DNA from: Dehalococcoidia bacterium
GTDB taxonomy: Bacteria > Chloroflexota > Dehalococcoidia > E44-bin15
DNA: 35,947 bases
NCBI GenBank assembly: GCA_004376075.1
Contig: SOJQ01000083.1
Coordinates: 1-35,947, forward strand
Direction: 5' to 3'
The notes beneath the pieces are model-generated. The model searched no databases. It was not told the origin of the DNA and worked only from the letters and a program-made list of their open reading frames with translations. Each line of letters begins with the position of its first letter. Within the stretch, counting starts at the first letter, position 1. This document shows positions 3,257-20,655 of this stretch, piece by piece. A program made the translations under genes and the position numbers.

Positions 3257-6048
3257 GGATAGAGGCAAAAAAGTGGGTCTATTTTTTCTCCGAGGGAAAC
3301 GCCGGCATGACCGACCTGCTGGGTGGAAAGGGTGCCCATCTTGCTGAGATGGCGAACGTGGGGTTTCCCGTGCCACCGGGATTCGTTATTTCTACTGAGG
3401 CATGCAACGAGTACTACGCCGCAGGCGAAGAATTCCCCCCAGCCCTCTGGGACCAGGTACTGGAGGCGCTGCGAAGGATGGAGAAGGAGACGGGCAAGAG
3501 GTTCGGTGATCCAAGGAACCCGCTCCTGGTTTCGGCCCGCTCCGGGGGTAAGGTCTCCATGCCAGGCATGATGGAAACCGTGCTCAATCTTGGCCTCAAT
3601 GAAGAGCCGGTGAGGGGGCTGGGTGATGTGACGGGCACTGAGCGTTTTGCCTATGACCCCTACCGTCGTTTTATCGGGATGTTCGGGAGGACGGTGCTGG
3701 GCATAGATTCCTCCCATTTCGAGGCGGTCCTGGAGCAATTCAAACTCAAGGCTGGCGCCCGGCTCGATGCCGACCTAGGCTCCGAGGACCTTAAAGCGAT
3801 CGTCTCGGAGTCAAAGAGGCTGGTTAAGGCGGAGACAGGCAAGGAATTCCCCGACGATCCCTTAGAGCAATTGAGATTATCGATAGAGGCGGTGTTTGAG
3901 AGCTGGAACGGTAGGCGTGCCATCAACTACCGAAACTTCCACAAGATTCCCCATGACCTGGGCACTGCGGTTAGCATTATGGCGATGGTTTTTGGCAACA
4001 TGGGCGACGATAGCGGCGCCGGGGTGGCCTTTACCCGCGATCCTGCCACAGGGGATAAAACCCTCTATGGGGAATATCTGGCAAATGCCCAGGGCGAGGA
4101 TGTGGTAGCGGGGATCCGCACTCCCCAAAAGGTCGAACTTCTTCAACTGGAGATGCCTGAGGTTTATCAGGAATTGGTGGATATCTCAGATCGCCTGGAA
4201 ACCCACTATCGCGATGTTCAGGATATAGAGTTCACCGTGGAACGGGGCAAGCTATATATATTGCAGACCAGAACTGCCAAGCGCACCGCAAAGGCAGCGG
4301 TGAAGGCTGCGGTGGATATGGTGAAGGAGGGTCTTATCACCAAGGAGGAGGCTCTAAAGCGCATTGAACCCGGCGAGCTCCTCTACTCTCTGTTCCCCAG
4401 GTTCGATGAAGGGGCGAAGGAAGAGGCCAGAAGCCAGGGTGACCTGCTGGCTAGGGGGTTGAATGCCTCCCCGGGGGCAGCGACAGGAAAGGCGGTTTTT
4501 GATGCTGACAGGGCGGAACAGTTAGGTTCCAGGGGGGAGAGCATCATATTGGTTCGCCCCGAGACCAGTGCTGAAGATGTCCATGGTATGTTGGTGGCAG
4601 CGGGCATCCTGACGGCGCGGGGCGGTGTGACAAGCCATGCCGCGGTTGTTGCCCGTGGTCTGGGTAAGCCCTGTGTTGCCGGTTGCGAAGAGCTGAGGAT
4701 CGATCTTGAAAGGCGCTACCTCACTGCCGGTGGCAGGGTCATTGAGGAGAATGAAGAGATAAGCATAGACGGCAGCACCGGCGAGGTCTTCGCCGGGCGT
4801 ATCCCAACCATCGTGCCCAAGTTGTCGGAGGAGAGCGATTTGATAGCGCTTCTGGGCTGGGCCGATGAGGTGAGGAGGCTGGGTGTTTGGGCCAATGCCG
4901 ATTACCCCAGCGATGCTGCCCGGGCCCTTGAGTTTGGAGCGGAGGGCATCGGGCTTTGTCGCACCGAGCACATGTTCTTTGAGGAGGAGCGCCTCCCCAT
5001 CGTCCAGAAGATGATCCTGTCAGCGGCCGAGGCGACTGCTCTTCAAAACGAATTGATCCGTTTGCAAGAAGAAAAGGATAGGCGGGGGAAGCTAGAGGAG
5101 AGGCTAGCCGAGGTGCAAAGGAGATATGATACCTCAGCCGCAGCAGCGGACTACCGCAGCGCCCTGGCTGAGCTGATGAGATTTCAAAGGGAGGACTTCA
5201 AGGGCATCTTCAGGGTGATGGCTGGTAAGCCTGTGGTTATCAGACTCGTCGACCCCCCGCTCCATGAATTCTTGCCCAGTTATGAGAGGGTGCTGGTAGA
5301 AACCACTGAATTTCGCATTAGGGGCAATGACCCAGTCAAGCTGGCGGAGAGCGAAAATTTGCTCCGCGCTATCGAGAGCATGCGTGAGACAAACCCTATG
5401 CTTGGGCTGCGCGGCTGTCGGCTAGGCTTGATGTTCGGCGATATCTACGAGATGCAGGTGCGCGCCATCTTAACCGCCGCCTGCGGGTTGGCAAAAGAGG
5501 GCATCGATGTTCGCCCTAAGATAATGATCCCCCTTGTCGGTCACCCAAACGAGATGAGGGTTCTTCGGGAAAAAGTGGAGAAAGTAGCGAGGGAGGTTGA
5601 GGCGGAGATGGGCACGATGGTTGATTACAAAATCGGCGTCATGATCGAGCTCCCCCGCGCTGCCCTCACCGCTGATGAGATCGCCCACTATGCCGAGTTC
5701 TTCAGCTTTGGCACCAACGACCTGACACAGACTACCTTCGGCTTCAGCAGGGACGATGCCGAGGGCAAATTCCTTTTGCAATATGTAGAAAGGGGGATCT
5801 TACCTGAGAACCCGTTTCAGGTGCTTGACCGCGACGGTGTGGGAAGGTTGATTAAGGTCGCAGTGGAATTAGGTCGCAAGACCAGGCCAGATATAGAGCT
5901 GGGCATCTGTGGTGAGCATGGCGGGGATCCATCGAGCATCCATTTCTGCCATCAAGTGGGGTTGGACTACGTGAGCTGCTCCCCCTTCCGAGTACCCATT
6001 GCTCGCCTTGCCGCGGCCCAGGCAGCACTGTCGGCAGGGGAGGGGTAG
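3253..6048 (+). CDS. ppdK: Pyruvate, phosphate dikinase
   Basis: Matching segments are MRIEAKKWVYFFSEGNAGMTDLLGGKGAHLAEM, SARSGGKVSMPGMMETVLNLG, the catalytic-His motif GGVTSHAAVVARGLGKPCV, and the C-terminal CGEHGGDPSSIHFCHQVGLDYVSCSPFRVPIARLAAAQAAL. The start at 3253 lies 5 nt after GGAGG (3243-3247). Confidence 0.95.
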   Translation: MRIEAKKWVYFFSEGNAGMTDLLGGKGAHLAEMANVGFPVPPGFVISTEACNEYYAAGEEFPPALWDQVLEALRRMEKETGKRFGDPRNPLLVSARSGGKVSMPGMMETVLNLGLNEEPVRGLGDVTGTERFAYDPYRRFIGMFGRTVLGIDSSHFEAVLEQFKLKAGARLDADLGSEDLKAIVSESKRLVKAETGKEFPDDPLEQLRLSIEAVFESWNGRRAINYRNFHKIPHDLGTAVSIMAMVFGNMGDDSGAGVAFTRDPATGDKTLYGEYLANAQGEDVVAGIRTPQKVELLQLEMPEVYQELVDISDRLETHYRDVQDIEFTVERGKLYILQTRTAKRTAKAAVKAAVDMVKEGLITKEEALKRIEPGELLYSLFPRFDEGAKEEARSQGDLLARGLNASPGAATGKAVFDADRAEQLGSRGESIILVRPETSAEDVHGMLVAAGILTARGGVTSHAAVVARGLGKPCVAGCEELRIDLERRYLTAGGRVIEENEEISIDGSTGEVFAGRIPTIVPKLSEESDLIALLGWADEVRRLGVWANADYPSDAARALEFGAEGIGLCRTEHMFFEEERLPIVQKMILSAAEATALQNELIRLQEEKDRRGKLEERLAEVQRRYDTSAAAADYRSALAELMRFQREDFKGIFRVMAGKPVVIRLVDPPLHEFLPSYERVLVETTEFRIRGNDPVKLAESENLLRAIESMRETNPMLGLRGCRLGLMFGDIYEMQVRAILTAACGLAKEGIDVRPKIMIPLVGHPNEMRVLREKVEKVAREVEAEMGTMVDYKIGVMIELPRAALTADEIAHYAEFFSFGTNDLTQTTFGFSRDDAEGKFLLQYVERGILPENPFQVLDRDGVGRLIKVAVELGRKTRPDIELGICGEHGGDPSSIHFCHQVGLDYVSCSPFRVPIARLAAAQAALSAGEG

Positions 6049-16663: not shown

Positions 16664-16741
16664 AGATTGACAGCGGGGAAGAAGCTTTTGCAAAGCAAAA
16701 ATTTCGGTGAGTGCCATAAGGCACAAACCTTTTATGCTGTG

Positions 16742-18046
16742 TTATGTGCAGTGCTGTATATTCGAAGCCTTCCATGATTCTCTATTCTTTTTTTTATCGA
16801 AAGATGGAATTGCATCAAAACTAACTTCATTTCCATCTGTTATATCAGGTGGCAAATCTGACTTATAACAGAAAAAGGATTGCTCGTCTTTTGCAATAAT
16901 AAAACAGAATGGACGGTCGCTCCGACCTAAACTTACTTTACCAACAAGTCCCTTTTTTACTTTGCGTTTCTTATATGACAAGTTCTTTAAGTTGTTCTCT
17001 TTACCCAGTAGTTTGCTCCACTCAGTTCGGCAAATACTCAATGCTTCTTTTAGAGAAGATGGCTCCTTGTTATTGCCAATAATTTTATTTAAATCATCAA
17101 CAGTATTTATTATAGGCTCAGGTACAGTCCATCCCTTTTCATTTCTAACGTATTTGCATAGGACAAGGTGGGCTCTGGCTTCTTCGTAATTTCCCAGCTC
17201 CTTGCAGAGGATTCCAATATCTACAAATAGGGATACCATAGATTCAAGTTTTGAATGACCACTAGCAGCTTGGTACATTAATTTTAAAGCGTCTTCTCTG
17301 CGGCCTATATCTCTAACTACTTTTGCATACTCATGAAGCATCCACCAGTCAGGCTTATAATCACTACTTAGATTTTGATAAATCCTTTCTGATTCAGGAA
17401 GGTTGCCAAGAAGATGGTTTGCTAAGGCCTTAAGTCGCAGGAGGAATTTTCGTTGTCTAGGGAATCGTTCTAGAATTTCATCGACTATACTTATTGCTTC
17501 TTTTGCATCCCCTTTTTCAATGAGCCCGTTTATACGGTAGTTATACCAGAGAGATTGATCACTCCATCCTTCCCTACCTGTATCATCTATCATAGGGTTC
17601 GTACTAAGAGAATCCGGAGCAATTTTAACCACCCATTCATTAACAGTCTCCCAATGATTAGAAGACTTGGCTGATTTTAACACTTTAAAAACTGTTAGCT
17701 TTGCAGCTAAACCGGTGGGGTTCAAGCTCATTATTCTGTTGGCTGTCTCTACTACCCTTTCAAGAGATTCTTCCTCGCCTAATTTATTAAGTACTCCTTG
17801 GATGTAAACCCATATAACTTCATTTCGGCACCATTCAAAATCAGGATATTTAGCGATCAGTTCATCGGCAAGAACGATTGCCTCATCAAACAATTCTAGT
17901 TTTCTAAGACAGTGAAGAAGCCCAGCACCATCAAACTCATCTCCTGTTTCTTTCCATAAATCTTTGTAGAGTAGGAGAGCTTCTCTGAAATTCTTTACTT
18001 TTCTAAGTTGATTAGCTTTCTGTTTCTGTTCTGTTATGTCAGCCAT
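16742..18046 (-). CDS. TPR-repeat protein with a C-terminal degenerate cold-shock/OB-like domain (island gene C)
   Basis: About 350 aa consist of helical-repeat sequence with TPR-like A/L/Y/W periodicity (e.g. FREALLLYKDLW, FDEAIVLADELIAKYPDF, AKEAISIVDEILERFP, REDALKLMYQAA, YEEARAHLVLCKYV). The last ~70 aa (GKVSLGRSDRPFCFIIAKDEQSFFCYKSDL...GNEVSFDA...SWKASNI) align with the Csp at 20452-20655. Confidence 0.7.
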   Translation of the reverse strand: MADITEQKQKANQLRKVKNFREALLLYKDLWKETGDEFDGAGLLHCLRKLELFDEAIVLADELIAKYPDFEWCRNEVIWVYIQGVLNKLGEEESLERVVETANRIMSLNPTGLAAKLTVFKVLKSAKSSNHWETVNEWVVKIAPDSLSTNPMIDDTGREGWSDQSLWYNYRINGLIEKGDAKEAISIVDEILERFPRQRKFLLRLKALANHLLGNLPESERIYQNLSSDYKPDWWMLHEYAKVVRDIGRREDALKLMYQAASGHSKLESMVSLFVDIGILCKELGNYEEARAHLVLCKYVRNEKGWTVPEPIINTVDDLNKIIGNNKEPSSLKEALSICRTEWSKLLGKENNLKNLSYKKRKVKKGLVGKVSLGRSDRPFCFIIAKDEQSFFCYKSDLPPDITDGNEVSFDAIPSFDKKKNRESWKASNIQHCT

Positions 18047-18060
18047 ATTCTATATCTCAG

Positions 18061-19002
18061 CTATTTATTAAGAACCTCAGCAGTGATCTTGAAATGCAAT
18101 TTTGCCACCTTCCGGAGCTCCTCTCTCCCATGTACATCGGCAAACCTCTTTGCATTTTCCACAACCGCCTGTGATGCACCTTTAGGCAAGTCAATTTTAT
18201 ATTCATTTGATAGTTTAGACAGTTTTTCTAAAAACCTTGCTCGGGCTAGAATCGATGCCGCTGCAACAGCTATATGCTGTTCTGCTTTATGCATTTGTAT
18301 TAGTTTAATCCTTTTACCTTTTTCCTGAAGTTTGCTTTGGATAAAGCTTTCATCGGCAAATTGGTCAGCAATTGCAACTTTGCAATCTACTCTAGAAAGA
18401 ACTTCTTCTATCGCTTTTGCATGTCCCCAAGCAAGTAATGTATTTAAATTCTTCTTTTCCCTTTTAAATTGCTCGTATAAGTCATTATACTTTTCTGGAG
18501 ATATTTCAATAATCGCAAAACGCCCCTTACATATTTTTGCTACTTCCCGAGCAAGCTCTAAGTTCTTACTATCGCTAAGTTTCTTGCTATCCTTGACACC
18601 ACATTCAATCAAATCTGTCGCAGATCGCTCATCTACATAGACACCAGCGCTAACTAAGGGCCCGAAATAATCACCTTTGCCAGATTCATCTGTACCAATT
18701 ATGGGTAATCCTAATGCAACATCTTTCTTGCTTGATTTTTTTGAATCGGATGATATTCCTTTATCTTCTATCAAAGTTTGGATTTTTATACCATTTACTC
18801 CACCTTTAAGTTGCGAATAATCAATTTTCAAAATACCTTTTTTGTTCTGATAGATTCTAATTACTCCTGACCAGTCAAGAATAGATACGGTAAACTGCAA
18901 ACCATAATCAATCAATTTATAGTCAGAGACATTGATATTGTCAACTTTCAGTATCGATTTTATATGTTCATACACTTCAAGAAGTCTATTTCCTTGTTCC
19001 AT
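18061..19002 (-). CDS. rnhC: RNase HIII (island gene B)
   Basis: The type-2 RNase H core matches RNase HIII as I remember B. subtilis RnhC: IIGTDESGKGDYFGPLV (D/E codons at 18685-18690), VKDSKKLSD, IADQFAD, HKAEQHIAVAAASILARARF, DLPKGAS and AKLHFK. It also has an N-terminal DUF3378/TBP-like domain (VIRIYQNKKGILKIDY). I prefer ATG 19002, which lies 8 nt after AAGGGG; GTG 19011 is the ORF-track start. Confidence 0.85.
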   Translation of the reverse strand: MEQGNRLLEVYEHIKSILKVDNINVSDYKLIDYGLQFTVSILDWSGVIRIYQNKKGILKIDYSQLKGGVNGIKIQTLIEDKGISSDSKKSSKKDVALGLPIIGTDESGKGDYFGPLVSAGVYVDERSATDLIECGVKDSKKLSDSKNLELAREVAKICKGRFAIIEISPEKYNDLYEQFKREKKNLNTLLAWGHAKAIEEVLSRVDCKVAIADQFADESFIQSKLQEKGKRIKLIQMHKAEQHIAVAAASILARARFLEKLSKLSNEYKIDLPKGASQAVVENAKRFADVHGREELRKVAKLHFKITAEVLNK

Positions 19003-19014
19003 GTAACTCACCCC

Positions 19015-20118
19015 TTATTTTGGAAGTAAAGGATAAAAGCCATTAAAATAGTCAAATATTTCTTTTGTATCTTTAAATATGGTGTTGACCTTTTCCTCTG
19101 CCCCTTCTTGCGAATCAACTTTGGTAATTTTACTCTCGTCACTGTGCATCATAAAATGACGGCTCATATCAAGACATAAACTTATTTTTTTAAGCATCGT
19201 GTCTCCGTACTTTTCTTTATCGCAAATGGCCTTTCTTTTCAAATGTGTGCGATCACTCAGAGTGGAAAAATTGGCATTTTTTGTCTTAAAATGATCTGTC
19301 TCAAAAAGTCCTATATCAATAAGAAGTTTTTTTGCAAAACCCTCAAAAGCCTTAGAAGCAGGCATCACTAAAGGAGAGAACTCCGGTAGAGGAATTTTGG
19401 TTAAGCAAAGGCATTCGGATGCTACAAACCATTTTCTGTCGTAAGGTTCAAGATAGTCATAGACATCCCCTATTTTTTCTTTTACCTTATTCTCCGCTAT
19501 AACTATAAGTTGAGGCGTATATTTAGCAGCAAAAATTTCCAAATTCTTTTCATCGCTTGATATAAATCTGGCTATTACTTCCTTATCTGATGGGCTGGCA
19601 ATTCTTTCGACCAGGTCACAGCTATCATTAAAAAGCTTGTCCGTTTTACCTTGAAGCAATAAAGTGCCATTATTAAACTGCGTCAAGGTTAAAGAAGAAC
19701 CATTTCTGGTAGTTTTAGCTCTATATTCGATAACAGAGGTTGAACTTTCAGTAATTTCTACTGTTGCTTCAAGCGTATTTAAAGCCTCTTTTATTTCTGT
19801 TCTGAATTGAGGTAGCATAATGTCATACCTTGTTGTACATGCTTTTATTTCTGATGTCTCGTGTCCAAGAAAAGACAGCGGATTGGCTTCAAACTCCCGT
19901 TTTAATTTCTCCATCTCAGCCTTCAATGAGTTTTGTTTGCCTTGAAGCTGCACTGTGCCATTATAATATATTTTAACTATTGTTCTTTCAGATAAGTTTG
20001 ATATATCAATTCTCAAGTTGTTTGATTCTTCAGATTGCTCGACCTGGTAGCTTCTACTATCACAGTAATCTGTAAACACTTTTGCTCTTTCATAAGTATT
20101 GGGAATAGATTTAGGCAT
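19015..20118 (-). CDS. RnlA/LsoA-like HEPN endoribonuclease toxin (island gene A)
   Basis: It has two TBP-like repeats (IVKIYYNGTVQLQGK and LTLTQFNNGTLLLQGK) resembling the RnlA NTD/NRD and the RNase HIII N-domain. The C-terminal domain carries the HEPN R-x4-H motif RHFMMH (residues 320-325, nt 19144-19161). E. coli RnlA has ERHSLFH at almost the same position, as I recall it. AGGGGG lies about 10 nt upstream of ATG 20118. Confidence 0.7.
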   Translation of the reverse strand: MPKSIPNTYERAKVFTDYCDSRSYQVEQSEESNNLRIDISNLSERTIVKIYYNGTVQLQGKQNSLKAEMEKLKREFEANPLSFLGHETSEIKACTTRYDIMLPQFRTEIKEALNTLEATVEITESSTSVIEYRAKTTRNGSSLTLTQFNNGTLLLQGKTDKLFNDSCDLVERIASPSDKEVIARFISSDEKNLEIFAAKYTPQLIVIAENKVKEKIGDVYDYLEPYDRKWFVASECLCLTKIPLPEFSPLVMPASKAFEGFAKKLLIDIGLFETDHFKTKNANFSTLSDRTHLKRKAICDKEKYGDTMLKKISLCLDMSRHFMMHSDESKITKVDSQEGAEEKVNTIFKDTKEIFDYFNGFYPLLPK

Positions 20119-20146
20119 CTCTTAAACCCCCTAAAGTATTTCTATG

Positions 20147-20175
20147 ATATAACCCCTTTCATTACTTGCTTCCAA
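20147..20175 (-). promoter_or_regulatory. Putative promoter of the island operon
   Basis: On the minus strand: TTGGAA (20175-20170), a 17-nt spacer and TTATAT (20152-20147), about 30 nt upstream of the gene A start. It is a weak -10 match and a sequence match only. Confidence 0.25.
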
Positions 20176-20451
20176 AGGCATTTCATATAACATCGTATTA
20201 GACGAACTCGCTTGCCCAGAGCGGGACTGGAAACCGGCCAACCTACAGCCCCAGCTCCTCACTGCCTTCACATCATCGGAAACTTCAACGGGGGGTGATC
20301 CGCTGATTCAGCTCTGGAACTCATGTATCAGGAGCAAGCTCCGATATGGTGAAACCTGCACCTTCAGGTGTTTCCTGGTGATCGATAACCAATCCGTCTA
20401 GCGCTGGGGCTAAATCAGGCCCTATAGGTAATACCTTGATACCCCCTTGCG

Positions 20452-20655
20452 CTAAGCTTCTATCATCCTTATATTCTCTGCCCGGAGGCCTTTAGGTCCT
20501 CTCCCCACATTGAACTCCACGCTGTTGCCCTCTTCTAAAGCGTCAAAATCTATCCCCTCCAAAGCTGAGCGGTGGAAAAAGATCTCTTGCCCATCTTCGG
20601 CACTGATGAAACCGAAGCCCCGGTCCCGGATAACTCTCTTTATCTCTCCTTTCAA
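20452..20655 (-). CDS. csp: Cold-shock protein (CspA family)
   Basis: The 67-aa product carries RNP1-like RGFGFI and RNP2-like IFFHRS (MKGEIKRVIRDRGFGFISAEDGQEIFFHRSAL...). It has a TTG start 8 nt after AAGGAGG. The G+C content is host-like. Confidence 0.9.
   Translation of the reverse strand: MKGEIKRVIRDRGFGFISAEDGQEIFFHRSALEGIDFDALEEGNSVEFNVGRGPKGLRAENIRMIEA

What the first reader, a model, noticed from the sequence alone, without database searches (positions are those of the whole stretch)
18061..19011. A catalytically intact-looking RNase HIII sits in the 'antitoxin position' of an RnlA-like locus
SEEN: Gene B retains every RNase HIII landmark I can recall: GTDESGKGDYFGP (Asp/Glu codons at 18685-18690), DSK, ADQFAD, KAEQHIAVAAASILAR, LPKGAS and KLHF. 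It therefore looks like an enzyme rather than a decayed domain. Its likely start (ATG 19002, with the SD AAGGGG overlapping the stop of A) indicates translational coupling to the toxin gene. It shares the low G+C of the island, so it is unlikely to be the host's housekeeping RNase H. ESTABLISHED: RNase HI stimulates RnlA in E. coli, and RNase HIII cleaves the RNA strand of RNA:DNA hybrids. INFERENCE: The RNase H link of RnlA may be hard-wired into the operon here. B could be an activator, a hybrid sensor or a co-effector. Alternatively it could neutralise A through TBP-like domain mimicry.
Basis: partly seen in the sequence, partly recalled or inferred. Interest (0 to 1): 0.6.

Follow-up and report, generated by a model that had tools for sequence, protein, structure and literature searches.

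The report
Accessory RNase HIII in TOTE defence cassette
The gene is a real, intact RNase HIII, but it is not a housekeeping enzyme or a simple antitoxin: it is the middle gene of a horizontally acquired three-gene cassette (RnlA-like RNA-cutting toxin, RNase HIII, TPR/cold-shock-domain protein) that fits the computationally named "TOTE" anti-invader class, for which I found no experimental test in the papers I could search.

Summary
Gene B (18061-19002, minus strand) scores above the curated rnhC cut-off. Its four catalytic residues, D105, E106, D213 and E241, are invariant in 202 homologues. It starts 12 nt after the stop of gene A, behind a Shine-Dalgarno site that overlaps that stop.

B is accessory. 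The genome also encodes RNase HII and an RNase HI-like protein, and none of 40 relatives has rnhC. B lies in a 3.5-kb, 37% G+C block (16679-20191) that the closest relative found with the same flanks lacks.

B never travels as an A-B pair. A, B and the TPR+S1/cold-shock protein C are co-inherited in distant bacteria and archaea. [quoted passage not shown]

In Bacillaceae the same partners occur as rnhC-TPR/CSD-RnlA-RnlB, so RNase HIII coexists there with a true RnlB antitoxin. They also occur as TPR/CSD with an RNase HI::RnlA fusion and RnlB.

RNase H therefore looks like a hard-wired partner of RnlA-type toxins. I favour a role as activator, hybrid targeter or co-effector over antitoxin. This is inference only, with no experiment behind it.

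I class it as a new member of a known, predicted kind, of moderate interest.

The parts
16679..20191 (-). Horizontally acquired cassette block holding A, B and C plus about 73 nt upstream and 63 nt downstream.
   Evidence: It is 85-86% identical in DNA to cassettes in unrelated flanks (L009, L011, L014). G+C is 0.367 here and 0.366-0.369 in those three close copies, whatever their flanks. The relative G005, whose flanks are 93% identical, lacks it.
19015..20118 (-). Gene A: RnlA-like HEPN RNase of 367 aa, built as TBP-like 1, TBP-like 2 and a HEPN domain.
   Evidence: Pfam RnlA-toxin_DBD scores 32.3 bits, above the cut-off of 27. A profile of the A family hits E. coli RnlA at E 1.2e-7. The AlphaFold model (pLDDT 83) has RnlA 6y2p (E 6e-13) and LsoA as its best PDB matches. 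R320-x4-H325 is invariant in 125 homologues.
18061..19002 (-). Gene B: RNase HIII of 313 aa, with a TBP-like N-domain (1-90), a disordered linker (84-94) and a type-2 RNase H catalytic domain.
18685..18690 (-). Codons for catalytic D105 and E106 of B (D108 and E109 if counted from the GTG at 19011).
   Evidence: Both are invariant in 126 cassette-linked and 76 solo homologues.
18364..18366 (-). Codon for catalytic D213 of B.
18280..18282 (-). Codon for catalytic E241 of B.
19003..19020 (-). A-B junction: the TAA stop of A, the overlapping Shine-Dalgarno site AAGGGG, and the 12-nt spacer before the ATG of B.
   Evidence: The same layout is conserved in homologous cassettes.
19144..19161 (-). 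HEPN motif R320-x4-H325 of A.
16742..18046 (-). Gene C: TPR repeats plus a C-terminal S1/cold-shock OB domain, 434 aa.
   Evidence: PADLOC PDLC01170 ('TPR fused to cold shock-like OB fold') matches end to end at E 1.4e-23, and PDC-M16B also matches. DUF7017 matches 30 of 31 family members and S1CSD-TOTE-2 matches 18 of 31, the latter below Pfam's cut-off.
16679..16745 (-). 3' tail of the cassette. It is the proximal arm of an attC-like imperfect palindrome that overlaps the stop of C. The distal arm is missing in this genome.

Best explanation
What is shown:
- B is a catalytically competent, accessory RNase HIII.
- It is the middle gene of a mobile three-gene TOTE-type conflict cassette. A is an RnlA-like HEPN RNase with two TBP-like domains. 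B is a TBP-like domain plus an RNase HIII catalytic domain. C is a TPR plus S1/cold-shock OB protein.
- The three genes are co-transferred, tightly packed and under purifying selection.

What is inferred:
- B is the built-in RNase H partner of the RnlA-type toxin. It would play the role that housekeeping RNase HI plays for E. coli RnlA, where RNase HI binds the TBP2/NRD domain and is required for activation.
- B would bind RNA:DNA hybrids, such as invader replication or transcription intermediates, through its TBP-like domain, and cut their RNA strand.
- Through this it would target or license the HEPN RNase A. It would act as activator, hybrid sensor or co-effector, not as an RnlB-like antitoxin.
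- C would be the nucleic-acid-sensing scaffold or regulator that holds the two TBP-bearing nucleases in check until an invader is detected.
For: B is an intact enzyme.
- It passes the rnhC cut-off.
- The DEDE residues are invariant in 202 homologues.
- It has the lowest dN/dS of the three genes, 0.14-0.18.
- Its predicted fold is RNase HIII.

B is accessory.
- The genome has its own RNase HII (C132) and an RNase HI-like gene (C16).
- Of 40 relatives, none has rnhC above the cut-off.
- The 37% G+C island is absent from relative G005.

The three genes are linked.
- A-B-C lies in unrelated flanks in L009-L016.
- C follows B in 17 of 19 metagenome loci with enough sequence downstream.
- Divergent A-B-C copies occur in Bacteroidota and a Deltaproteobacteria MAG.
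- In the tree, cassette RNase HIII sequences fall in one mixed-taxon clade.

The architecture varies around the same parts.
- Bacillaceae and a Bacillus plasmid carry rnhC-TPR/CSD-RnlA-RnlB.
- Other Bacillaceae carry TPR/CSD, then a Cauli_VI + RNase HI + RnlA fusion, then RnlB.
- A Chloroflexota locus carries a TBP + kinase + RNase HII-fold fusion next to TPR/CSD.
- The 50%-identity representative library holds predicted A-B fusions (P0369, P0422) and a B-C fusion (P0368).

Literature.
- E. coli RNase HI is required for RnlA activation and binds its NRD domain (PMC5308261).
- RnlA TBP1 and TBP2 resemble the RNase H3 N-domain, and free RnlA rests as an inactive dimer (PMC8266594).
- RnlA-family HEPN domains are often fused to RNase H or TBP-like domains (PMC3710099).
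- TOTE is defined as TPR, OB, TBP, Effector, and TOTE systems are said often to include RNase H domains (PMC12458937).
Against: - There is no experimental evidence for this cassette or, in the papers I could search, for any TOTE system.
- This version has no RnlB in the island or the genome. Something must restrain A, and B or C could be that factor.
- At least one locus (L181) seems to have A followed directly by C, without B. B may therefore be dispensable in some variants.
- The TOTE-specific Pfam domain models match only below threshold.
- I could not check the fusion proteins at the DNA level.
- I could not read the original TOTE description (Aravind et al. 2022).
Confidence: 0.68

Rival explanations
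1. B is the antitoxin or neutraliser of A in this RnlB-less version, alone or together with C. It would dock on the TBP or HEPN domains of A, for example by TBP-domain mimicry, while perhaps keeping its enzymatic activity.
For: There is no RnlB in the island or in the genome. B sits just downstream of A and is translationally coupled to it. B and A share TBP-like modules, weakly by profile comparison (hhalign E about 6e-4) and by Foldseek hits of the B model to RnlA. In E. coli, RNase HI also helps RnlB to inhibit RnlA (PMC5308261).
Against: An antitoxin has no need of an invariant DEDE active site. In the four-gene Bacillaceae versions RNase HIII coexists with RnlB and is the first gene, not the one after the toxin. 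Free RnlA rests in an inactive dimer, so an antitoxin may not be required (PMC8266594).
Confidence: 0.17
2. The cassette is not an anti-invader system. It would be a selfish addiction or stabilisation module of a mobile cassette array, or an accessory RNA/R-loop housekeeping module, with B simply removing RNA:DNA hybrids.
For: The boundaries look like those of an integron cassette. Neighbours include toxin-antitoxin pairs such as HicAB and FitA/PIN. No phage-defence test was found in the papers searched.
Against: C matches PADLOC models for defence-associated proteins. Related loci sit beside restriction-modification genes and among Tn7-like cargo. RnlA and LsoA are proven anti-T4 effectors (PMC5308261, PMC8266594). 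The domain logic matches the predicted TOTE and TALON immune systems (PMC12458937).
Confidence: 0.12
3. B is the organism's ordinary, vertically inherited RNase HIII and lies next to a toxin gene by chance.
For: Close solo homologues (51-63% identity) occur in a Nitrospirae MAG (L017), an unclassified bacterium (L018), a cyanobacterium (L022) and Methanomicrobiales. None has A or C alongside at the BLAST threshold used.
Against: The genome has RNase HII and an RNase HI-like gene. None of 40 relatives has rnhC. B sits in a foreign low-G+C block that the closest relative found lacks. Linkage with A and C is strict.
Confidence: 0.02

Closest known systems
TOTE (TPR, OB, TBP, Effector) conflict systems. 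[quoted passage not shown]
   Same: A TPR protein ending in an S1/cold-shock OB domain is encoded beside proteins that join TBP-like domains to nuclease effectors. RNase H domains are said to be frequent. Distribution is sporadic and mobile.
   Different: The TOTE-specific Pfam domain models match only below threshold here. I could not read the original paper, so I cannot say whether the exact RnlA-like / RNase HIII / TPR-CSD arrangement without RnlB is listed there. I found no experimental characterisation.
E. coli RnlA-RnlB and LsoA-LsoB, a type II toxin-antitoxin and anti-T4 defence (RNase LS).
   Same: A has the same TBP1-TBP2-HEPN architecture. It keeps the catalytic equivalents K256, E259, R320 and H325, which correspond to RnlA R255, E258, R318 and H323. 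E. coli RnlA depends functionally on an RNase H.
   Different: There is no RnlB gene here. The RNase H partner is an operon-encoded RNase HIII, not the host's RNase HI. A third gene, the TPR-CSD protein, is obligatory. Sequence identity to RnlA is about 16%.
Housekeeping bacterial RNase HIII (rnhC; Bst-RNase HIII 2D0A, Thermovibrio RNase H3 4PY5).
   Same: The fold, the DEDE active site and the TBP-like N-terminal hybrid-binding domain are the same. The rnhC model is passed above its cut-off.
   Different: The N-domain is a divergent subtype: TIGR00716 aligns only from position 71 onward. The gene is accessory, horizontally transferred and operon-locked. Cytobacillus carries it in addition to a canonical rnhC.
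RNase H-fused RnlA-family proteins (Anantharaman et al. 2013, PMC3710099).
   Same: They pair an RNase H activity with an RnlA-type HEPN RNase.
   Different: There the RNase H is type 1, has a Cauli_VI hybrid-binding domain and is fused in cis. Here it is type 2 (RNase HIII) and a separate, translationally coupled gene.
[quoted passage not shown]
   Same: They share the TPR-CSD and TBP genes. I found them in the same phylum (L105, L108).
   Different: TALON adds a YprA helicase and a NERD nuclease, and it lacks RnlA and active RNase HIII.

Membership tests
RNase HIII (rnhC, TIGR00716) | The whole-protein score exceeds the curated equivalog cut-off. | tested here: met
   201.5 bits against a cut-off of 161.2. 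PF01351 matches at 1.6e-33.
RNase HIII (rnhC, TIGR00716) | The four acidic catalytic residues (DEDE) are present. | tested here: met
   D105, E106, D213 and E241 align with Bst D97, E98, D202 and E232. They are invariant in 202 homologues.
RNase HIII (rnhC, TIGR00716) | There is an N-terminal TBP-like substrate-binding domain. | tested here: met
   The AlphaFold model (pLDDT 90.8) aligns over 303-313 columns with Bst-RNase HIII, N-domain included. At sequence level the N-domain is divergent: TIGR00716 matches only positions 71-283.
RNase HIII (rnhC, TIGR00716) | The protein cleaves RNA:DNA hybrids. | not testable with these tools
   This needs an enzyme assay.
TOTE conflict systems | A TPR protein is fused to an S1/cold-shock OB domain. 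| tested here: met
   PADLOC PDLC01170 matches end to end at 1.4e-23. DUF7017 matches 30 of 31 members. S1CSD-TOTE-2 matches 18 of 31 members, below Pfam's cut-off (21.7 bits for the isolated C-terminal piece, 18.6 for whole C, against 27).
TOTE conflict systems | TBP-like domain proteins are encoded alongside. | tested here: inconclusive
   The TBP-like fold is supported by structure. The A model matches RnlA and, weakly, TBPs. The B model matches RNase HIII over its full length. The Pfam TBP-TOTE model itself matches only weakly: E 0.048 for B, and 1 of 46 family members.
TOTE conflict systems | A nuclease or other effector domain is attached to the TBP module or adjacent to it. | tested here: met
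   A has the HEPN R-x4-H motif. B has the RNase HIII active site.
TOTE conflict systems | The components are linked in a conserved operon across unrelated genomes. | tested here: met
TOTE conflict systems | The system has anti-invader activity. | not testable with these tools
   I found no experimental report.
RnlA-RnlB type II toxin-antitoxin | The toxin is RnlA-type, with TBP1-TBP2-HEPN architecture and an R-x4-6-H motif. | tested here: met
RnlA-RnlB type II toxin-antitoxin | An RnlB antitoxin gene (PF15933) lies adjacent. | tested here: not met
   There is no RnlB-like ORF in the island or the loci or in the genome, which is 93% complete. The conserved block has only 12-14 nt between genes and no spare ORF.
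Integron gene cassette (side issue) | The 5' boundary lies at G|TTRRRY and an attC imperfect palindrome sits at the 3' end. | tested here: inconclusive
   Homology starts exactly at GTTATAT, GTTAGGT or GTTATGT. In L014 the upstream neighbour ends in an attC-like site (GCCTAAC, an 11-bp stem, then G|TTATGT). The 3' palindrome folds with z -4.9 to -5.3 in L014 and L011, but it is truncated in the window (z -1.3). No integron integrase scores above the cut-off in the genome.

The most novel reading that the evidence does not exclude
RNase H would be an obligatory and evolutionarily interchangeable component of RnlA-family immunity. It could be supplied in trans (E. coli RNase HI), in cis (an RNase HI::RnlA fusion) or in the operon (RNase HIII). 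Together with the TPR-CSD protein it would form an immune sensor for RNA:DNA hybrids. Binding or cleavage of invader hybrids, such as replication primers, R-loops or reverse-transcription intermediates, by the TBP-bearing RNase HIII would switch the RnlA-like HEPN dimer from its resting form to its active form. An RnlB-type antitoxin would then be unnecessary.
Probability: 0.3. Interest if true: 0.7.

Novelty: new member of a known kind. Interest (0 to 1): 0.45.

Why it matters
For E. coli it has long been puzzling that the anti-phage toxin RnlA needs housekeeping RNase HI both to become active and to be inhibited. This cassette and its relatives show that the RnlA-RNase H partnership is built into operons and fusion proteins across bacteria and archaea, always beside a TPR/cold-shock-domain protein.

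That gives a compact three-gene system of about 3.5 kb, with no RnlB, in which the partnership can be dissected genetically. It also offers a way to test a TOTE system experimentally; I found no such test in the papers I could search. It warns annotators that an 'rnhC' call in a low-G+C island can mark a defence module and not DNA-replication housekeeping.

Tried and rejected
- **False A-B fusion in L019.** The apparent fused ORF in Gilvibacter was a bug in my ORF-extension script. A real TAA lies at 3995-3997.
- **Programmed read-through of the A stop.** A and B are in frame in the window and in many loci. This follows from the fixed 12-nt spacer that holds the Shine-Dalgarno site. The L014 spacer contains further stops. 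By my own reading of the tblastn frames, only about 13 of 30 divergent loci are in frame, against a chance expectation of one third.
- **Promoter and terminator scan of the island.** It gave no more hits than shuffled sequence.
- **Terminal repeats.** I found no direct or inverted repeats at the ends of the island and no tRNA.
- **Profile comparison of the B N-domain with the TBP modules of A.** It is weak (E about 6e-4, probability about 30%). I use it only as supporting evidence.
- **TOTE-specific Pfam models.** TBP-TOTE and S1CSD-TOTE match only below threshold.
- **Phage and plasmid records.** C has no match in 50,697 phage records. The phage and plasmid hits to B are ordinary rnhC genes or look like host DNA.
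- **Sources and tools I could not use.** The Aravind 2022 review is not in the library. The tool that finds sequencing runs was closed, so I have no expression or co-transcription data.
Full report
**1. The observation**

The minus-strand ORF at 18061-19011 exists.
- The Asp and Glu codons are at 18688-18690 and 18685-18687, as stated.
- B scores 201.5 bits against the NCBIfam rnhC equivalog, whose cut-off is 161.2.
- By sequence it hits Thermovibrio, Bacillus stearothermophilus and Aquifex RNase HIII structures (E 1.6e-31 to 1.7e-19).
- The alignment with Bst-RNase HIII places D105, E106, D213 and E241 on that enzyme's four catalytic residues. I number from the ATG at 19002.
- These four residues are invariant in 126 cassette-linked and 76 solo homologues.
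- An AlphaFold model built on 46 sequences has mean pLDDT 90.8.
- Its best PDB matches are full-length RNase HIII structures, N-terminal TBP-like domain included (E about 1e-19, 297-313 columns).

The A-B junction reads AAA TAA GGGGTGAGTTAC ATG.
- The Met at 19002 is the start shared by most of the 120 listed homologues.
- The stop-overlapping TAAGGAG/TAAGGGG and the 12-nt spacer recur in most homologous cassettes.
The GTG at 19011 is probably not used.

**2. B is accessory and foreign**

The assembly is 1.26 Mb and 93% complete.
- It encodes a canonical RNase HII on contig 132 (235 aa, with DEVGRGPLAGP).
- It encodes an RNase HI-like protein of 135 aa on contig 16.
- None of 40 relatives in the same genus, family, order or class has an rnhC match above the cut-off.
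- A, B and C lie in a 37% G+C block inside DNA of 53-57% G+C.
- DNA homology to cassettes in unrelated contexts runs from 16679 (16671 against L009) to 20191, or to 20142 against L011.
- A relative from the same family, G005, has flanks 93% identical. Between sbcC and csp it carries a GyrI-like gene and an IscA-like gene in place of the cassette. Only a remnant of the IscA-like gene survives in the window, at 20314-20453.
B is not the genome's only type-2 RNase H, and it does not group with vertically inherited enzymes of related taxa.

**3. What B travels with**

Homologues of B at 78-89% identity are abundant in metagenomes.
- In every long contig I fetched, the order is RnlA-like (366-368 aa), RNase HIII (313-316 aa), then a TPR protein (434 aa), in differing flanks.
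- Source names attached to cassette proteins include Dehalococcoidia, candidate division WS2, Spirochaetota, Syntrophaceae and Petrotoga. Archaeal sources include Methanophagales, Methanogaster and Aenigmarchaeota.
- Divergent A-B-C copies occur in Gilvibacter, Reichenbachiella and a Deltaproteobacteria MAG (A 43-49%, B 52-55%, C 38-40% identity).
- Of 19 further metagenome loci with at least 900 nt downstream of B, 17 have a C homologue there.
- The three close copies with DNA in hand keep 36.6-36.9% G+C in flanks of 35-51%, as does the window's copy (36.7%) in 54-57% flanks. More divergent cassettes range from 32% to 45%.
- All three genes are under purifying selection. dN/dS is 0.19-0.31 for A, 0.14-0.18 for B and 0.20-0.31 for C.
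- In a maximum-likelihood tree, the cassette-linked RNase HIII sequences fall in one mixed-taxon clade. A few solo genes are interleaved there: a Nitrospirae MAG (L017), an unclassified bacterium (L018), a cyanobacterium (L022), a candidate division KSB1 MAG (L028) and a Methanomicrobiaceae archaeon (L024). The clade is separate from the large Nitrospira and Bacillota groups.

**4. The partners**

Gene A:
- A passes the Pfam RnlA-toxin_DBD cut-off.
- A profile of its family hits E. coli RnlA at E 1.2e-7. In that alignment A's K256 and E259 fall on RnlA R255 and E258.
- R320-x4-H325 is invariant in 125 homologues.
- The AlphaFold model (pLDDT 83) has RnlA as best PDB match (6y2p, E 6e-13, about 375 columns). 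LsoA follows, and then TATA-binding proteins, weakly.
- A therefore has the TBP1-TBP2-HEPN architecture.
- A 29-nt direct repeat spaced 291 nt apart marks the duplicated TBP module.

Gene C:
- C matches the PADLOC model 'TPR repeats containing protein fused to cold shock-like domain (OB-fold)' end to end (1.4e-23), and also PDC-M16B.
- Of 31 family members, 30 match DUF7017 and 18 match S1CSD-TOTE-2, the latter below Pfam's cut-off.

**5. The known class**

The Pfam names led me to TOTE. PMC12458937 defines it, citing Aravind, Iyer and Burroughs 2022.
[quoted passage not shown] The cassette has all four parts.
- TPR and OB are in C.
- TBP-like modules are in A (two) and B (one).
- The effectors are the HEPN domain of A and the RNase HIII domain of B.

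I reached this reading before seeing any follow-up note from the scan. Those notes report the same conclusion for the same cassette in other genomes. They are not independent evidence.

**6. Variants that bear on the role of B**

I searched the phylum (401 genomes) and Bacillaceae (269 genomes) for the TPR-CSD model. Including the query genome in each set, 5 genomes per set had a full-length match, so the distribution is sporadic. The contexts are informative.
- A Bacillus plasmid (NZ_CP152438), a Bacillaceae genome (L134) and Cytobacillus oceanisediminis (L027) carry rnhC, TPR/CSD, RnlA, then RnlB. The RnlB genes are genuine (PF15933, 1e-24 to 4e-28).
- Cytobacillus keeps its housekeeping rnhC as well (317 bits, against 201 for the cassette copy).
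- Two other Bacillaceae loci (L132, L133), next to Tn7-like genes, have TPR/CSD, then one 482-aa protein made of a Cauli_VI hybrid-binding domain, RNase HI, the RnlA NRD and HEPN, then RnlB.
- A Chloroflexota locus (L106) has TPR/CSD beside a 767-aa protein made of a TBP-like domain, a Ser/Thr kinase and an RNase HII-fold domain with intact DEDE.
- TALON loci (YprA helicase, NERD nuclease, TBP, TPR-CSD) also turned up.
- The 50%-identity representative library holds predicted fusion proteins. P0369 and P0422 are A-B fusions, with both HEPN and RNase HIII motifs intact. P0368 is a B-C fusion. I could not inspect their DNA.

**7. Interpretation**

TPR-CSD is the constant element, and an RNase H accompanies the RnlA-type HEPN toxin in three interchangeable ways.
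- In the operon, as RNase HIII.
- In cis, as fused RNase HI.
- In trans, as the host's RNase HI, as known for E. coli.

In E. coli, RNase HI binds the NRD/TBP2 domain of RnlA and is required for its activation. It also helps RnlB to inhibit RnlA (PMC5308261).

The evidence argues against reading B as a stand-in for RnlB.
- RnlB and RNase HIII coexist in the four-gene version.
- In that version B is the first gene of the operon.
- The active site of B is under the strictest constraint of the three genes.

This genome and island have no RnlB. What restrains A is therefore open. Free RnlA rests as an inactive non-canonical dimer (PMC8266594), so no antitoxin may be needed. Alternatively C or B may hold A in check.

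I put 0.68 on B being an activator, hybrid targeter or co-effector within a TOTE-type system. I put 0.17 on a role as antitoxin or neutraliser. All steps of mechanism are inference.

**8. How the cassette moves (side issue)**

- Homology between contexts starts exactly at GTTATAT, GTTAGGT or GTTATGT, which resembles the integron core site G|TTRRRY.
- In L014 the upstream neighbour ends in an attC-like site.
- The 3' end of the cassette overlaps the stop of C. In L014 and L011 it forms a long imperfect palindrome (z -4.9 and -5.3). Its distal arm is missing in the window (z -1.3).
- No integron integrase passes the cut-off in this genome.
- This partly agrees with an earlier scan note. It suggests that the window's copy is now immobile.

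**9. Limits**

- I found no experiment on any TOTE system in the papers I could search.
- The 2022 review could not be read.

**10. Verdict**

This is a new member of a known, computationally predicted kind, and its interest is moderate (0.45). The most useful product is the comparative argument that RNase H is a built-in partner of RnlA-family toxins, together with a compact, RnlB-less three-gene cassette in which to test it.

Noticed in passing
window 20185-20191 and 16679-16745; L014 6729-6805 and 10255-10352: The cassette boundaries look like those of an integron cassette. The 5' edge lies at GTTATAT, GTTAGGT or GTTATGT. In L014 the upstream neighbour ends in an attC-like site. A 3' imperfect palindrome overlaps the stop of C, and its distal arm is missing in the window. 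No IntI scores above the cut-off in this genome.
   Followed up: partly
window 20199-20254: A 56-nt stretch next to the island is 100% identical to a stretch in relative G005 (L117 3540-3595). There it lies elsewhere, between a hicB-like gene and a CoA-transferase gene. The sbcC-csp interval appears to be a rearrangement hotspot.
   Followed up: partly
window 20314-20453: This is a remnant of the 3' part of an IscA/HesB-like gene that is intact in relative G005 (L117 2376-2669). The island seems to have replaced that gene's 5' part and a GyrI-like gene.
   Followed up: partly
G000 contig 16 (L003 66-1902): The genome's only RNase HI-like gene (135 aa) sits 8 nt downstream of a 473-aa protein that, from its sequence, looks like a large serine recombinase. 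It may itself belong to a mobile element and not be housekeeping.
   Followed up: no
L027 10-2822; L132 7620-13197; L133 4262-7161: In Bacillaceae the TPR-CSD/RnlA cassettes lie directly beside Tn7-like transposition genes. TniB and TniQ were confirmed by Pfam in L027; the L132 and L133 neighbours are judged by size and sequence only. The cassettes would be transposon cargo.
   Followed up: partly
L106 7023-15031: This Chloroflexota locus has a TPR-CSD gene, a 767-aa TBP-like + Ser/Thr kinase + RNase HII-fold fusion, and a 1467-aa kinase + SNF2 helicase + NOV_C protein. It is a large TOTE-like variant whose kinase domain resembles PD-T4-6.
   Followed up: partly
window 19002-20118 and homologous loci: A and B are in the same reading frame, separated by one stop codon and a 12-nt spacer. 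A single stop-codon loss would fuse them, and the protein library holds such a fusion (P0369). Read-through seems unlikely, because the L014 spacer has extra stops.
   Followed up: partly
L181 3-1503: In this metagenome contig the 3' end of an A-like gene is followed after 70 nt by a C homologue, with no RNase HIII gene between them. The 5' part of A is cut off, so a fused RNase H cannot be excluded.
   Followed up: no
L136 (MW495066.1 231102-237734): The record named 'Microcystis phage MaAM05' has an rnhC flanked by gatA, coaE and sasA. This stretch looks like bacterial chromosomal DNA and not phage DNA.
   Followed up: no
window 16742-20118 compared with L009, L011 and L014: Synonymous divergence falls along the operon: dS is 0.48-0.77 for A, 0.40-0.52 for B and 0.24-0.36 for C. 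This could reflect recombination within the cassette or differing codon constraints.
   Followed up: no
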